Shown: in pieces, positions 11,255 through 14,486 of the stretch
Position numbering within the stretch: position 1 is the first letter of the stretch
Layout of the letters: each line of letters opens with the position of its first letter
Origin: an uncultured Chloroflexus sp.
GTDB taxonomy: Bacteria > Chloroflexota > Anaerolineae > Anaerolineales > Villigracilaceae
Length of the DNA stretch: 14,486 bases
NCBI GenBank assembly: GCA_964618215.1
Contig: CAZTZE010000064.1
Coordinates: 1-14,486, forward strand
Direction of reading: 5' to 3'
Translations under genes and position numbers: made by a program
The notes under the pieces: generated by a model
What the model saw: the letters and a program-made list of their open reading frames with translations, nothing else
The model's database searches: none
Told to the model about the DNA's origin: nothing

Positions 11255-12751
11255 TCACGAAAAATCGGACGGGGCGCGATCAAACCAGGGTTGAGCGCGC
11301 TCGAGCTGGCCGGCCAGTCGGAAGAGAGTGGCCTCGTCGCCAAAACGACCGACGAAGTGCATACCGATGGGCAGCCCGGCTTCATTCCAATACAGAGGCG
11401 CCGACATCGCTGGCTGGCCGCTTGCATTGAAGATTGGTGTATAGGGCATGAAATCGAATGTCTTGTTGGCCAAGGGCTTGATTATGCCAAGCGCATTCAG
11501 CAGCCAGGCAGCATTGAGCCGGCCGACCAGTCCCACCATGAACCGCTCTGCACCTGTGGGCTGCAACGAGCCTGTCAGCACAGGGGGTTGAGAGAGAGTC
11601 GGGGTCAGCAGGACGTCATAACCTTCGAAGAAGCGGCCCACCTCACGCGCCGAGGCCATTAGATAGTTCAATGCATTGGCGTATTTGCCGGCGCTGAAGG
11701 CCTGCCCCAGCAGAGCCAGCGCGCTTGTGCCAGTTTCGAAGTCAGCATAAGATGACTTGCGCCCGGCCAGGCCTGCGGCCCAATCAATCTCGTCGCGCGT
11801 CTCGGCCGCCACCATTGTCATAAATGCAATGGCAAACGCCTCTCTGTCAATCTGCGGCGCGGCTTCTACTAGTTCGTGGCCCAACTGCTCCAGCAAGTGA
11901 ACAGTGGCTTCCAACCCTTTCCGGCAATCTTCGTGGACAGCATGGCCGAGGAAAGGGTGCGCAGTGAAGGCGATGCACAGGCGGCCCGGCTCTGTGGTCA
12001 CTTCCTGCAAATAGGGGCGCTGCGGCGCTGGGGCATAGTAAGGCGCGCCTACATCCGGCCCGGCGATGGCGTCCAGCATGGCGGCGCTGTCGCGTACCGA
12101 GCGGGTGAGGACGTGTTCCTGGGCAAATCCGCGCCAGATATCGCCAACATCCGGACCCGTTGGAGTGCGGCCGCGGGTGGGCTTCAGTCCAAATATTCCA
12201 CAACAGGAGGCTGGGATACGGATTGACCCGCCTCCGTCGGCGCCGCCTGCCAGGGGTACCAGGCGGGCCGCCACAGCCGCCGCGGAGCCGCCGCTGGAAC
12301 CGCCGGGTGTCCGCGTCAGGTCCCATGGATTGTTGGTTGGGCCGAAAGCTTCAGGCTCAGTATAGGGCAGTAGGCTGAATTCAGGGACATTGGTCTTGCC
12401 GAGCAGGATAACGCCCGCAGCCCGGTAGCGGCGCACAATTTCACTGTCGTGCGGCTGGGGGATGTCCTTCAAGATGCGCGTCCCACAGCTCGTCGGCGCG
12501 CCTTTGACGGTAGCGTGCATGTCCTTTAGAAGGAAGGGCACACCCTTGAATGGCCCGTCGGGCAAGTCGCCTTTTGCCGCCGCGCGCGCCTGCGCATACA
12601 TTTTATAGATGACGGCATTGATCTTGGGATTATGCGCCTCAATGCGGCTGATCGCCTCTTCGATCACATCCGCGGCCGAGATCTGTTTTGTCTTCACCAG
12701 TTCGGCAAGGCCCAGACCATCGTACTTGTGGAATTCAGGGAAGGTGTTCAT
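11255..12751 (-). CDS. Amidase (amidase-signature family; GatA- or Asp-tRNA amidotransferase-like, or general amidase)
   Basis: Contains the AS-family signature '[13 protein letters not shown]', the catalytic Ser-cisSer-Lys context ('[13 protein letters not shown]', '[26 protein letters not shown]'), and other family-typical motifs ('GKTNVPEF', 'TNNPWDL'). The start at M18 (12751) has SD GAGGAG about 4 nt upstream; the longer ORF-track start at 12802 has no SD. Confidence 0.9.
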
Positions 12752-12849
12752 AGGCTCCTCTTGGAAATCCAGCTCGAAAGGGTTGCTCCCCGCTGGGGTC
12801 ATTGCCCGGCGGGACGCTTTATTTTAACGGTCAACGGCTTGGCTCAGCG

Positions 12850-14486
12850 GCAGCGGCGGGACTGGCGAGACGCCTAACCAATTATGCACCATTTCTGGCA
12901 AATCGCGCCTGCGCGGAGCGGCAGAGCCGCTGTCCGACTGGAGCCGGTGTTACTAGAATGTACCTGCGTTGGGGCGTGGCGGGTGGTATCCTTGGGCTGA
13001 CCGAGCACCGGGGATGCCAACCGGGGCAGGAGCATCCGGGCGGACCGACGCGGCCTATGGGAGAGAGAGTAGTCTCACCCCGAGTTGTTACTTGGTCGCC
13101 CGGTGGATTCTCGTCTGGGCCACGAGCCCGAATCGGTGTTTGCGACTTCTGCCCGAAAATCCACGCCCCAACCACAAGTTCAAGGAGAGTGTAGCATGGA
13201 AGATGAACAAAAAGCAAGTACCAATCGTTACATCGCCCTGGATATCCACAAGTATTATTCGGTGGTGGCCGGGGTGAACCGGGATGGGGAGGAGATCCTG
13301 CCGCCTTGCCGGGTGGAGCACCTGAACCTGGAGGACTGGCTGGGGAAGCACTTGCTGCCCAGCGACCGGGTGGTGATCGAATCGACGACCAACGCCTGGC
13401 ACGTGTATGACTTGCTGGAGCCGCTGGTGGCCGAAGTATTGGTGGCCAACCCGATCAAGGTGAAGCAGATTGCCTGTGCGCGGGTGAAGACCGACAATAA
13501 GGACACCTTGATCCTGGCGCGGCTCTTGGCTGCGAACCTGGTGCCGACGGTATGGGTGCCTCCGAAGCACGTGCGCGAACTGCGGCAATTCATCTCGCAC
13601 CGGCGGCGGTTGGCCAACATGCACACGCAAGTTGTGAACCGGATGCACAGTGTCGCACACCGGCACCATCTCAGTCACCCAAAAGGGAAGGATTTTCAGC
13701 CGAAGAACACAGGGTGGCAGCGGGATGAAAGTTTGTCCAGCCTGGAGAAGTTGCAATTGGAACTGGACATGGCAACGCGTGCGCACCTGGAAGAACAGAT
13801 GGAGCGGATGACGCGGGAGTTGGGGCGGATGAGCCACGAAGAGCCGTGGGCGAGCGACATGCTGTATCTGATGCAGATCCCCGGCTGTGGCGTGGTGACA
13901 GGCATGACGATCATGGCGGCCATTGGAGACATCACCCGCTTCGAGAACCCGAAAGCGTTGGCGAGTTATTCGGGACTGACGCCCGGGTTGGAGCAGAGCG
14001 GGGTGAAGGTGCGCGGCAAAGGGATCACGAAGGAAGGGCGGCGGGAGTTGCGCTGGGCGCTGGTGGAAGTGGCCTGGCGAGCAGTGAAGGCCGATCCGCA
14101 CTGGAAGCGGCTTTTCGAAGAACTGAAAAGACGCATGCACCCCAACCAGGCAATTGTGACCATCGCACATTACCTGCTGGTGGTAATCTGGTATGTGCTG
14201 ACAAAGCACGAACCCTACCGGCACTATTCACCGGAGCGGATCGCCTACAAGTACCTGACCTGGTCGTGGGCGCTGGACGAAGAGCAGCGGCAGGGAATGA
14301 CCCGCCCGCAGTTTGCGCGCTATTACCTGATGCGGCTGGGGATCGGGAACGATTTGAAACGTGTGGCCTTGAATCCGGAATTTCCGTACCGGTTGGCTTC
14401 TGTGGAGGAAGTCCTGGCGCTCAGGCCGGAGTTGCGGCCACCTGAGTAATCGGTAGTCTACTCTCTGGAAGAAACAAACAACCCCG
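12850..14486 (+). mobile_element. IS110-family insertion sequence, probably partial at the right end. The left-end coordinate is approximate; the right end lies at or beyond the window edge
   Basis: The element comprises a DEDD-type IS110 transposase gene preceded by a ~350-nt GC-rich structured non-coding region, which is the characteristic IS110 organisation; the family has no terminal inverted repeats. The boundaries cannot be fixed from sequence alone. Confidence 0.6.
13196..14449 (+). CDS. IS110-family transposase (DEDD/RuvC-like N-terminal domain plus C-terminal IS110-type domain)
   Basis: The N-terminal 'YIALDIHKYYSVVAG' is the family DxH motif equivalent to IGIDV(H/S)K. It has '...ARVKTDNKDTLILARLL' and the C-terminal 'IPGCGVVTGMTIMAAIGDITRFENPKALASYSGLTPGLEQSG' (IPGIG...AEIGDI.RF....L.AYAGL.P....SG). 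SD AAGGAGAG sits 6 nt before the ATG. The ORF-track start at 13085 is an upstream in-frame extension with no RBS. Confidence 0.9.
   Translation: MEDEQKASTNRYIALDIHKYYSVVAGVNRDGEEILPPCRVEHLNLEDWLGKHLLPSDRVVIESTTNAWHVYDLLEPLVAEVLVANPIKVKQIACARVKTDNKDTLILARLLAANLVPTVWVPPKHVRELRQFISHRRRLANMHTQVVNRMHSVAHRHHLSHPKGKDFQPKNTGWQRDESLSSLEKLQLELDMATRAHLEEQMERMTRELGRMSHEEPWASDMLYLMQIPGCGVVTGMTIMAAIGDITRFENPKALASYSGLTPGLEQSGVKVRGKGITKEGRRELRWALVEVAWRAVKADPHWKRLFEELKRRMHPNQAIVTIAHYLLVVIWYVLTKHEPYRHYSPERIAYKYLTWSWALDEEQRQGMTRPQFARYYLMRLGIGNDLKRVALNPEFPYRLASVEEVLALRPELRPPE

What the first reader, a model, noticed from the sequence alone, without database searches (positions are those of the whole stretch)
12803..13195. 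IS110 left-end non-coding region: candidate bridge/guide RNA locus
About 390 nt of GC-rich, hairpin-dense non-coding sequence separates the divergent amidase start from the transposase ATG. Examples are GGATGC(N13)GCATCC at ~13010-13045, CTCGT(N7)ACGAG at ~13105-13125 and GTCGC...GCGAC at ~13095-13150. In the IS110 subgroup the long structured ncRNA that specifies target and donor recognition (the 'bridge RNA', as in IS621) is encoded in exactly this 5' non-coding end. The IS sits immediately upstream of, and divergent to, the amidase gene, so it could also disrupt or supply that gene's promoter.
Basis: partly seen in the sequence, partly recalled or inferred. Interest (0 to 1): 0.6.

Follow-up and report, generated by a model that had tools for sequence, protein, structure and literature searches.

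The report
attC-hunting IS110 element's guide RNA

Summary
Only window 12952-13195 (244 nt) belongs to the insertion sequence. Window 12829-12951 is the left part of an integron attC site that the element has split at GTT|RGGC.

Across about 50 copies from Chloroflexota metagenomes, the left end is better conserved (86.6%) than the transposase gene (80.7%) or the 3' non-coding end (65.3%). It folds into one consensus structure supported by compensatory changes. The window's own copy folds well below shuffled controls (z = -5.6).

Unpaired stretches beside two hairpins carry GCSGCCUA, which is complementary to T|AGGCSGC right of the insertion point. They also carry GGUGUU (identical to the target's left side) and AAUCGGU (identical to the element's right terminus). 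That makes three matches of 7 nt or more at the crossover, against 0.24 expected by chance (P = 0.002).

Joining the two ends of the element would create TTGACA-17 nt-TAGAAT just upstream of the RNA.

Rfam has no bridge-RNA family, because the IS621 locus itself scores nothing, so the lack of an Rfam hit means little.

Verdict: a new member of a known kind. Two features are less ordinary. attC targeting evolved independently of the IS1111-attC group, and the order of guides within each loop appears reversed relative to IS621.

The parts
12829..12951 (+). Left part of the integron attC site that the element interrupts. It runs from the R''-like box GGTCAAC (12829-12835) to GGTGTT (12946-12951). 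The remainder of the R box (AGCC...) follows the element's right end, outside the window.
   Evidence: Intact IS-free sites have RYYYAAC...GTTRRRY ends and fold as hairpins. They include L017 3510-3636, L010 3495-3624, L001 6762-6900 and 11 sites between minus-strand ORFs in L106. A contig carrying a 97%-identical amidase (L102) lacks this stretch.
12946..12951 (+). Target left half plus the shared T (GGTGTT). Insertion occurred after 12951.
   Evidence: The six bases are perfectly GGTGTT at 26 of 36 occupied sites but only 6 of 16 intact attC sites (Fisher p = 0.03).
12952..13195 (+). Left end of the insertion sequence (244 nt, non-coding).
   Evidence: Alignment A1 of 45 distinct copies has a mean column identity of 85%. 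Identity to this copy is 86.6%, against 80.7% for the coding sequence and 65.3% for the 3' non-coding end.
12954..12959 (+). TAGAAT, a -10-like hexamer. It would form a promoter only when the right end's TTGACA is brought 17 nt upstream by circularisation.
   Evidence: TAGAAT is present in 56 of 57 copies, and the right end reads CTTGAC(A) in most copies. The 17-nt spacing was counted from the sequences. No promoter-like site is found in the integrated state.
12966..13172 (+). Predicted non-coding RNA of about 205 nt. The 5' end is inferred from the -10 hexamer, and the 3' limit is the end of the closing helix.
   Evidence: MFE -113.9 kcal/mol, z = -5.58. Consensus structure: 98.1% of cells paired, 8 pairs with changes on both sides, and 0 of 500 shuffles reached that.
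12971..12979 (+). P1, 5' arm (GGGGCGUGG). It pairs with 13161-13169.
   Evidence: (inverted repeat I5), 26 and 50: 98.3% paired.
12981..13022 (+). P2, the 5' stem-loop, with a variable apical helix.
   Evidence: Per-copy folds show GUGCG/CGCAC, GUGUG/CACAC, UGCAG/CUGCA and similar variants. L024 carries several compensatory changes in the basal helix.
13038..13048 (+). P4, 5' arm. It pairs with 13092-13101.
   Evidence: Pair 109:164 is GC 25 / AU 10 / GU 10; pair 110:163 is AU 32 / GC 7 / GU 6; pair 112:161 is CG 37 / UA 7. The helix is 99.6% paired.
13050..13057 (+). Proposed right-target guide (GCGGCCUA here; GCSGCCUA in the family). It sits on the 5' side of the P4 internal loop and is complementary to the top strand T|AGGCSGC.
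   Evidence: 8-nt antisense match that includes the crossover T. The U opposite position +1 tolerates the observed A/G there (30/25). The off-site insertion L024 still matches T|AGGCCG.
13058..13082 (+). P4a hairpin between the two proposed target guides. Its loop is variable.
   Evidence: 99.1% paired; pair 126:147 is GC 41 / AU 3.
13084..13091 (+). Proposed left-target guide (GUUGUU here, GGUGUU in most copies) followed by AC. It sits on the 3' side of the P4 loop. It is identical in sense to the target's GGTGTT, and the AC equals the first two bases of the element.
   Evidence: In L037 both the guide and its site read GTTGTT.
13107..13114 (+). Possible right-donor guide (AUUCUCGU). It is complementary to ACTAGAAT of the element's left terminus at 7 of 8 positions.
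   Evidence: Read directly from the sequence. On its own this match is at chance level by my estimate, so it is the weakest part of the model.
13116..13130 (+). P5a hairpin (GGGC...GCCC) between the proposed donor guides.
   Evidence: 100% paired; pair 187:195 is CG 43 / UA 2. L016 and L017 tolerate insertions of roughly 30-50 nt just 5' of it.
13131..13140 (+). Proposed left-donor guide (AAUCGGU, followed by GUU). It is identical in sense to the element's right terminus ...AATCGGT.
   Evidence: Present in 36 of 39 copies as an exact 7-mer ending at the crossover.
13146..13154 (+). P3, 3' arm. It pairs with 13024-13032 and encloses P4 and P5 in a multiloop.
   Evidence: 97% paired, but only one-sided changes, so this helix is weakly supported.
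13161..13169 (+). P1, 3' arm (CCACGCCCC).
13182..13189 (+). Ribosome-binding site AAGGAGAG, 6 nt before the ATG.
   Evidence: Nearly invariant in the alignment.
13196..14449 (+). Transposase/recombinase, 417 aa (DEDD RuvC-like domain plus Tnp domain containing the Ser-Gly motif).
   Evidence: Pfam PF01548 and PF02371. NCBIfam NF033542, 224.9 bits. The alignment to IS621 covers E60, D102/D105 and S241.
14450..14486 (+). Start of the 192-nt right non-coding end. It continues to window-equivalent 14641 (L001 4446) and ends ...CTTGACACTGAGGTTAATCGGT.
   Evidence: Only the last ~22 nt, one hairpin and a terminator-like hairpin are conserved.

Best explanation
Window 12952 to window-equivalent 14641 is an intact 1,690-bp IS110-family insertion sequence. 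It sits inside the R box (GTT|RGGC) of an integron attC site, antisense to the gene cassettes.

Its 244-nt left end encodes a structured RNA of about 205 nt (roughly 12966-13172) that acts as the element's guide (bridge or seek) RNA.

Proposed cycle:
1. Excision joins the two ends of the element. This places the right end's TTGACA 17 nt upstream of the left end's TAGAAT, which switches on transcription of the RNA and of the transposase gene behind it.
2. The RNA folds into a closing helix (P1), a 5' hairpin (P2) and two hairpin-bearing loops.
3. In the first loop, GCSGCCUA pairs with the top strand to the right of the insertion point (T|AGGCSGC), and GGUGUU pairs with the bottom strand to its left (GGTGTT).
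4. [quoted passage not shown] 5. The DEDD/Ser recombinase bound to this RNA brings the circle junction and the attC site together and exchanges strands at the shared T.

Shown here: the element's limits, the identity of the target, the insertion position and orientation, the conservation pattern, the covarying helices and the sequence matches.

Inferred: transcription, the promoter, RNA-protein binding, the base pairing itself and the exact guide assignment.

The confidence of 0.72 is for the claim that the left end encodes the element's guide RNA. That it is a functional structured RNA of some kind I put at about 0.85. The exact guide assignment and the reversed order I put at about 0.4-0.45.
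For: Family: Pfam and NCBIfam matches, including 'IS110 family RNA-guided transposase' at 224.9 bits. The catalytic positions align with IS621.

Limits and target: about 50 copies share their ends, and intact attC sites read GGTGTT|RGGC.

A functional non-coding left end:
- Identity is 86.6%, against 80.7% for the coding sequence and 65.3% for the 3' end.
- Indels are not multiples of three, and insertions are tolerated in or beside hairpins.

Structure:
- RNAalifold gives -64.8 kcal/mol.
- 98.1% of cells are paired, 8 pairs have double changes, 0 of 500 shuffles reach this, and sliding the partners drops pairing to 37-49%.
- The P2 apical helix differs in sequence between copies while still pairing.
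- The window's own copy has z = -5.58.

Guides:
- Three exact matches of 7 nt or more touch the crossover, against 0.24 expected (P = 0.002, 5,000 dinucleotide shuffles).
- They lie in unpaired stretches flanking hairpins, as in IS621 (PMC11208158).
- The U or G placed opposite target position +1 tolerates the observed A/G there.
- Occupied sites are enriched for GGTGTT (p = 0.03).
- The off-site insertion L024 retains the right-side match.

Promoter: TTGACA-17-TAGAAT exists only at the joined ends, and both hexamers are conserved. No promoter-like site is present in the integrated copy. Junction promoters are documented for IS621 and ISEc21 (PMC11208160, PMC11187229).
Against: - There are no expression data, and no circle junction was found among 104 loci.
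- Within this family, guide variants do not track the flank variants. Cognate and shuffled pairings score the same (6.84 vs 6.78 of 10). This is because all copies hit one class of target, so the decisive guide-target covariation test is uninformative here.
- The left-target guide is only 6 nt.
- The proposed right-donor guide is a 7-of-8 match that is at chance level on its own and does not cover the shared T.
- AAUCGGUGU also resembles the target's CGGTGT, so the donor versus target assignment of that segment is ambiguous.
- The order of the guides (top-strand guide 5', bottom-strand guide 3') is the reverse of IS621 and ISEc21.
- Helix P3 has only one-sided changes.
- GGATGC/GCATCC offers an alternative pairing that competes with P2.
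- No public covariance model for bridge RNAs was available to run.
Confidence: 0.72

Rival explanations
1. The conserved left-end structure is only a cis-acting leader of the transposase mRNA, controlling translation or stability. The protein finds its target by recognising the folded attC hairpin, as integron integrases do.
For: The RNA ends about 10 nt before the ribosome-binding site and is co-linear with the gene. The targets are structured palindromes. Guide variants do not covary with flanks within the family.
Against: Three matches of 7 nt or more to the target and to the element's end lie exactly at the crossover (P = 0.002). Occupied sites are enriched for the 6-mer matching the loop. 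An insertion at a non-equivalent place in an attC (L024) keeps the sequence match but not the structural position. All IS110/IS1111 members tested experimentally need such an RNA (PMC11208160, PMC11187229).
Confidence: 0.12
2. The guide RNA is encoded in the 192-nt right non-coding end, as in IS1111, and the left end has some other role.
For: Both non-coding ends are long; 26 of about 350 ISfinder entries have two long non-coding regions (PMC11187229). The right end has one hairpin with compensatory changes. The apparent guide order is the one reported for IS1111-type elements.
Against: The right end is the least conserved part of the element (65.3%) and has a consensus fold of only -6.5 kcal/mol. 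It holds no conserved match of 6 nt or more to the donor, and only GCCGGT/ACCGGC inside a terminator-like stem in about a third of copies. There is no subterminal inverted repeat of 7 bp or more. The transposase is 417 aa, not 330-350 aa.
Confidence: 0.04
3. The hairpins are incidental GC-rich secondary structure with no function.
Against: z = -5.58 against dinucleotide shuffles. The region is conserved above the coding sequence in about 40 copies. Compensatory changes occur in several helices.
Confidence: 0.02

Closest known systems
IS621 and related IS110-group elements with a left-end bridge RNA (Durrant et al. 2024, PMC11208160; Hiraizumi et al. 2024, PMC11208158)
   Same: DEDD plus Ser recombinase. 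A long, conserved left non-coding end upstream of the gene. A promoter split between the right end (-35) and left end (-10). [quoted passage not shown] The left half is read on the bottom strand and the right half on the top strand. The crossover is at a T, with no terminal inverted repeats.
   Different: The proteins are distant: 328 vs 417 aa, phmmer E = 8e-16 over two segments. The order inside each loop appears reversed, with the top-strand guide on the 5' side here and on the 3' side in IS621. The proposed donor guides sit in a multiloop rather than a simple internal loop. The whole RNA is closed by a 9-12 bp terminal helix. The right end is also long (192 nt). The unambiguous shared core is 1 nt (donor GGT|, target GTT|) rather than CT.
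IS1111-attC group: ISPa21, ISPst6, ISKpn4 (Tetu & Holmes 2008; Post & Hall 2009; seekRNA shown by Siddiquee et al. 2024, PMC11187229)
   Same: Targets one end of integron attC sites. Inserts near the cassette-proximal (5') end of the attC, antisense to cassette transcription (as stated in PMC3001079; here 48 of 58 flanks). The top-strand match lies 5' of the bottom-strand match in the RNA.
   Different: The transposase is only 23% identical to ISKpn4 over 159 aa, whereas members of that group are 74% or more identical to each other (supplement of PMC11187229). It is 417 aa against about 345 aa. The conserved structured non-coding region is upstream, not downstream. There is no subterminal inverted repeat of 7-17 bp. 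The hosts are Chloroflexota with chromosomal cassette arrays, not Proteobacteria.
ISEc21 (IS110 type, upstream seekRNA; PMC11187229)
   Same: The upstream non-coding region is essential in that element. Both have a junction promoter, and both have short matches to both strands of the target that overlap at the insertion point.
   Different: In ISEc21 the bottom-strand match is 5' of the top-strand match. Its target is a linear sequence in IS3 transposase genes. No significant protein similarity appeared in a small BLAST panel.

Membership tests
IS110 family (DEDD transposases, RNA-guided) | Transposase with an N-terminal DEDD RuvC-like domain and a C-terminal Tnp domain carrying the G..P....SG motif | tested here: met
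   PF01548 at 62.1 bits and PF02371 at 91.5 bits. NF033542 at 224.9 bits against a cut-off of 140. GLTPGLEQSG is visible in the translation. The alignment to IS621 covers E60, D102/D105 and S241.
IS110 family (DEDD transposases, RNA-guided) | Sequence-specific insertion, without classical terminal inverted repeats and without a multi-base target duplication | tested here: met
   42 left and 56 right distinct flanks share one target consensus. Comparing occupied and intact sites shows at most the single T shared. No terminal inverted repeat longer than 4 bp was seen by inspection of the ends.
IS110 family (DEDD transposases, RNA-guided) | A circular intermediate whose joined ends form a promoter | tested here: inconclusive
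   Joining the ends in silico gives TTGACA-17-TAGAAT, with both hexamers conserved. No circle junction or tandem junction was present in the 104 loci held.
IS110 group (as opposed to IS1111 group) | The conserved structured non-coding RNA region lies upstream of the transposase gene (left end) | tested here: met
   Left end: 86.6% identity and a consensus fold of -64.8 kcal/mol. Right end: 65.3% and -6.5 kcal/mol.
IS110 group (as opposed to IS1111 group) | [quoted passage not shown] | tested here: not met
   GCSGCCUA (antisense to the right target half) lies 5' of hairpin P4a, and GGUGUU (sense to the left target half) lies 3' of it. The IS621 order was checked against its sequence, which matches E. 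coli genomes at 100%. This assignment rests on sequence matches, not on experiment.
IS1111 group | Subterminal inverted repeats of 7-17 bp | tested here: not met
   Only a 4-bp GTTA...TAAC pair flanks the joined ends. It changes compensatorily in L032 and L011, but other copies carry mismatches.
IS1111 group | Transposase of about 330-350 aa related to the IS1111 transposase over its full length, with the long non-coding region downstream | tested here: not met
   417 aa. Only 23% identity to ISKpn4, and only over the C-terminal 159 aa. The downstream region is poorly conserved.
Bridge RNA / seekRNA | The RNA is transcribed, binds the recombinase and is required for recombination | not testable with these tools
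   Needs RNA sequencing, co-purification and recombination assays.
Bridge RNA / seekRNA | Loop nucleotides covary with the target and donor sequences across orthologues | tested here: inconclusive
   All copies retrieved (62-96% amino-acid identity) share the same termini and the same class of target. Mutual information and cognate-versus-shuffled tests are therefore flat. The only supporting cases are anecdotal (L037, L024).
Bridge RNA / seekRNA | Match to a curated covariance model | not testable with these tools
   Rfam 15 gives no hit in the window. It also gives none on the genuine IS621 bridge RNA locus L104, so it holds no such model.
Integron attC site (the target) | Imperfect palindrome with RYYYAAC at one end and GTTRRRY at the other, recurring between co-oriented ORFs | tested here: met
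   L106 has 11 intact sites of 63-180 nt (most about 125 nt) with GCCYAAC...GTTRGGC, lying between minus-strand ORFs, plus the occupied one. Further sites are in L010, L017, L105 and L001. No integrase gene was seen in the stretches held. The IntegronFinder covariance model was not available.

The most novel reading that the evidence does not exclude
This is a previously undescribed lineage of RNA-guided IS110-family recombinases that learned to hunt integron attC sites independently of the IS1111-attC group. Its bridge RNA sits in the left end, as in the IS110 type, but each loop has the IS1111-type polarity (top-strand guide first), and the donor guides lie in a multiloop. It would therefore be an architectural intermediate between the two groups. 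It would show that guide order and RNA location are separable. It would also show that cassette arrays of Chloroflexota are colonised by programmable recombinases that read the R box of attC.
Probability: 0.4. Interest if true: 0.6.

Novelty: new member of a known kind. Interest (0 to 1): 0.45.

Why it matters
RNA-guided IS110 recombinases are being developed as programmable genome-insertion tools, and natural diversity in their RNA architecture is the raw material for that work.

This family offers three things. First, there are about 50 natural variants of a roughly 205-nt RNA with a clear consensus fold. Second, the target is well defined, abundant and structured: attC. Third, if the guide assignment is right, it is a left-end RNA with reversed loop polarity, which would bear on how the IS110 and IS1111 groups diverged.

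For integron biology, it shows a second, unrelated lineage of insertion sequences that inserts at the same end of attC and in the same orientation as the IS1111-attC elements and the group IIC-attC introns. That points to a common selective reason for this position.

For annotating this window, it shows that the right-hand end of the window enters a gene-cassette array, and that the amidase gene lies at the distal edge of the part of the array seen on this contig.

Tried and rejected
- **Rfam.** The gathering threshold and E <= 10 gave nothing meaningful. The IS621 control shows Rfam has no bridge-RNA family, so this result is uninformative.
- **First boundary model.** I first placed the element's start at GTTACT with a GT or CGGT core. 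I rejected this after finding intact target sites reading GGTGTT|RGGC. That model also gave a 20-nt promoter spacer, where the revised model gives 17 nt.
- **CACCGG (13007-13012) as a guide.** It is antisense to CCGGTG, but it is the 3' arm of hairpin P2.
- **CCGGUGGA (about 13100-13107) and the GUUGGG/CCCAAC strings in P1 as guides.** These are 6-mers at chance frequency and lie inside helices.
- **Guide-flank covariation.** Mutual information, cognate versus shuffled pairings and longest-common-substring tests for the left and right ends all showed no signal.
- **Empty site through the amidase neighbourhood.** Two contigs with 88-97% identical amidases have different neighbours and no attC.
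- **Circle or tandem junction in the loci.** None found.
- **GTGGATT/AATCCAC helix (I17).** Changes on either side break it rather than compensate, judging by inspection of A1.
- **TAATCGGTAG just after the stop codon as a 3' guide.** It is not conserved outside close relatives of this copy.
- **Placing the transposase in a named subgroup.** It is 23-29% identical to the panel members that gave a hit in the ISfinder set taken from a paper supplement, and at most 37% identical to anything in 72,556 plasmids. No closest named element could be given.
- **Covariance model of the left end.** Not built. At about 215-270 positions, calibration would probably exceed the time limit, and the sequences held would match by construction.
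Full report
**What is at the coordinates.**
- The window has an amidase gene on the minus strand; its real start is at 12751 (Pfam Amidase, E = 2e-101).
- A 417-aa ORF lies on the plus strand at 13196-14449. It carries both IS110-family domains and matches NCBIfam NF033542, 'IS110 family RNA-guided transposase', at 224.9 bits against a cut-off of 140.
- The closest solved structure is the IS621 recombinase (E = 8e-16). That alignment covers the catalytic E, the D..D pair and the Ser-Gly motif.
- The window stops 37 nt after the stop codon. The same metagenome contig (ENA ERZ27284377, k119_325729) was retrieved as L001 and extends further. Window coordinate = L001 coordinate + 10195.

**Limits of the element.**
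- I fetched 20 loci from Chloroflexota/Anaerolineae genome bins and 80 from metagenomes. They encode relatives at 62-96% identity.
- Homology to this copy always begins at about 12949 and ends at L001 4446.
- I first read the ends as GT|GTTACT... and ...AATCG-GT|.
- IS-free copies of the flanking repeat then turned up: L017 3510-3636, L010 3495-3624, L001 6762-6900, and 11 sites in L106. All read ...GGTGTT|RGGC... without interruption.
- The GTT therefore belongs to the target. The element is ACTAGAATG...TTAATCGGT, from window 12952 to window-equivalent 14641, or 1,690 bp.
- The only base that is ambiguous between the element and its target is a single T.

**The target is an integron attC site.**
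- The flanking repeat has RYYYAAC at one end and GTTRRRY at the other (GCCCAAC/GCCTAAC ... GTTGGGC/GTTAGGC).
- It has complementary inner boxes and a variable centre, and reconstructed empty sites fold as long hairpins.
- In L106, eleven intact sites and one occupied site alternate with ORFs that are all on one strand and mostly have no Pfam match. This is the layout of a gene-cassette array.
- Integrons are known in Chloroflexi (PMC4889954).
- The element sits between GTT and RRRY of the R box at the cassette-proximal end of the attC. It is antisense to the cassettes: the longest flanking ORF is on the opposite strand in 48 of 58 flanks, and almost always so on the right side.
- The same position and orientation are described for the IS1111-attC group and for group IIC-attC introns (PMC3001079).
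- The transposase here is nevertheless only 23% identical to ISKpn4, and only over its C-terminal part. It is at most 37% identical to anything in 72,556 plasmids.
- In the window itself, 12829-12951 is the left part of such an attC.
- A contig with a 97%-identical amidase lacks this stretch, and further attC-like sites follow to the right in L001. Among the sites seen on this contig, the occupied attC is therefore the one furthest from the rest of the array and lies next to the amidase gene.

**The left end is a conserved, structured, non-coding unit.**
- Over 38 full-length copies, identity to this copy averages 86.6% in the left end. It averages 80.7% in the coding sequence and 65.3% in the right non-coding end.
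- The alignment of 45 distinct left ends (A1) has indels that are not multiples of three. It also shows insertions of roughly 30 to over 100 nt in or beside hairpins in some copies, so the region is not coding.
- RNAalifold gives one consensus structure at -64.8 kcal/mol.
- I tested a slightly extended version of that structure. In it, 98.1% of cells pair and eight pairs show changes on both sides. None of 500 column shuffles reaches that, and sliding the partners by 1-3 columns drops pairing to 37-49%.
- The best-supported helix is P4 (13038-48 / 13092-101), with pairs such as GC 25 / AU 10 / GU 10.
- The apical helix of the 5' hairpin P2 differs in sequence between copies while keeping its pairing.
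- The window's own RNA (12966-13176) folds at -113.9 kcal/mol, z = -5.58.
- The right end, treated the same way, gives -6.5 kcal/mol. It has one small hairpin with compensatory changes, a variable terminator-like hairpin, and a conserved last ~22 nt.

**Guide-like sequences.**

In IS621, each loop has on its 5' side a guide identical in sense to the left half-site plus core. That guide pairs with the bottom strand. On its 3' side is a guide complementary to the core plus right half-site (PMC11208160, PMC11208158). I checked this against the IS621 RNA sequence, which matches E. coli genomes at 100%.

Here, the internal loop of P4 carries:
- on its 5' side, GCSGCCUA (13050-57), complementary to T|AGGCSGC;
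- on its 3' side, GGUGUU followed by AC (13084-91). GGUGUU is identical to the target's GGTGTT, and AC equals the first two bases of the element.

Around hairpin P5a:
- the 3' side carries AAUCGGU (13131-37), identical to the element's right terminus;
- the 5' side carries AUUCUCGU (13107-14), complementary to ACTAGAAT of the left terminus at 7 of 8 positions.

Statistics and supporting cases:
- With the consensus sequences, three exact matches of 7 nt or more touch the crossover. Dinucleotide shuffles give 0.24 on average (P = 0.002).
- The U of the first guide and the G after AAUCGGU both face target position +1, which is A or G (30/25). Both would tolerate either base.
- Occupied sites have a perfect GGTGTT in 26 of 36 cases, against 6 of 16 intact attC sites (p = 0.03).
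- One copy (L024) sits at a non-equivalent place inside an attC, and the sequence there still matches the first guide (T|AGGCCG).
- In L037, both the second guide and its site read GTTGTT.

Against this:
- Guide variants do not track flank variants within the family, because all copies share the same termini and the same class of target.
- The 7-of-8 match is at chance level on its own.
- AAUCGGUGU also resembles the target's CGGTGT.

The existence of guide-like loops is therefore well supported. The exact assignment is a working model.

If the assignment is right, the half-site and strand logic is the same as in IS621: left half on the bottom strand, right half on the top strand. The order along the RNA, however, is reversed. 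That reversed order is the one Siddiquee et al. report for IS1111-type seekRNAs (PMC11187229). The donor guides would lie in a multiloop, as Durrant et al. note for many IS1111 members.

**Expression.**
- Joining the ends gives TTGACA, a 17-nt spacer (CTGAGGTTAATCGGTAC), then TAGAAT. That is 11 of 12 consensus positions.
- TAGAAT is present in 56 of 57 copies, and the -35 region is conserved.
- A start about 7 nt downstream falls at roughly 12966, just before helix P1.
- No promoter-like site is found in the integrated copy.
- The right end holds a terminator-like hairpin on the minus strand (L001 4394-4359). It could stop cassette transcripts from running into the element. This offers a reason for a long right end that does not require a second RNA.

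- The main interpretation is supported.
- The interval is composite: attC DNA plus the element's left end.
- Of the three named hairpins, one is a conserved alternative to P2. One reaches full length only in copies like this one. One conflicts with the covarying helix P4.
- The proposed covariance-model test cannot be done with Rfam, which has no such family.
- There is no evidence that the element affects the amidase promoter.

**Verdict.** This is an intact IS110-family element whose left end very probably encodes its guide RNA: a new member of a known kind. The less ordinary aspects are the independently evolved attC targeting and the apparently reversed loop polarity. The second needs experimental or wider comparative confirmation.

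Noticed in passing
window 12829-12951; L001 4447-7254 (the same contig, to the right of the window): The right edge of the window enters an integron-like gene-cassette array. A further intact attC lies at L001 6762-6900 (GGCTAAC...GTTAGCC), and a degenerate one near L001 5480-5600. They lie between minus-strand ORFs (GGACT 159 aa plus 191 aa, TPR 377 aa, 92 aa). The called GGACT ORF now ends about 30 nt inside the element's right end, so the insertion changed its C-terminus. No integrase gene was seen in the stretch held.
   Followed up: partly
L106 1-15022 (contig_27975 of ERZ25039515): A textbook cassette array: 11 intact attC sites plus one occupied by this element. The same array holds a second, different IS110-family transposase gene (402 aa, 38% identical) at 13609-14817. 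Its left non-coding region contains AAUGUUGUU, identical to its own left flank AATGTTGTT.
   Followed up: partly
L105 18462-19754: A group II intron reverse transcriptase (RVT_1 + GIIM) lies on the cassette strand, a few kb to the right of two attC sites and of the element. It recalls the group IIC-attC introns.
   Followed up: no
L032 45-108 (left flank of that copy): The left flank is a tandem array of about five units of GGAGCCGGTGTT(GTT). This is the target's left half plus the crossover bases, repeated. It may be a trace of repeated or aberrant strand exchange.
   Followed up: no
L027 and L037, right junctions: These two copies have an extra GTT between the right terminus and the RGGC of the target (AATCGGT-GTT-AGGC). 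Either their attC had a GTTGTT variant or the crossover was displaced by 3 nt.
   Followed up: partly
L024 (left flank ...GCCGAACGGCTTGCGTT|, right flank AGGCCGTACGC): An insertion at a secondary site, apparently within the 5' part of an attC rather than at the usual R box. This copy's left terminus reads ATTAGAAT, and its P2 helix carries several compensatory changes.
   Followed up: partly
L016, L017, L014, L033 left ends (alignment): Palindromic insertions of roughly 30 to over 100 nt (for example TGCCTGCACTTGCGCACCTGTACCTGCGCGCGTGCAGGCAGGTACAAG) lie in or beside hairpins of the left-end RNA, just 5' of P5a and elsewhere. They may be a small mobile hairpin element. The ORFs of several of these copies also appear disrupted.
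   Followed up: no
window 14447-14456: TAATCGGTAG, which overlaps the stop codon, is identical to the element's right terminus plus the first two target bases (L001 4439-4448). It is present only in close relatives of this copy. It may be a relic of a shorter right end, or chance.
   Followed up: partly
window 12971-12979 / 13161-13169: The arms of the closing helix P1 (GUUGGGGC.../...GCCCCAAC) resemble the attC R boxes themselves (GTTGGGC / GCCCAAC). A 6-mer match is expected by chance, so this may mean nothing.
   Followed up: no
window 12789-12813 (L001 2594-2618): A terminator-like hairpin on the plus strand (CCCGCTGGGG...CCCGGCGGG, then a T-rich tail) lies between the amidase start and the attC. 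It is partly conserved in the IS-free amidase contig L102.
   Followed up: no
L002 3741-3797: A second, variant copy of the element's left end (GGTTGTT|ATTAGAATGTAAATG) starts about 800 nt downstream of the first copy. This fits insertion into the next attC of an array.
   Followed up: no
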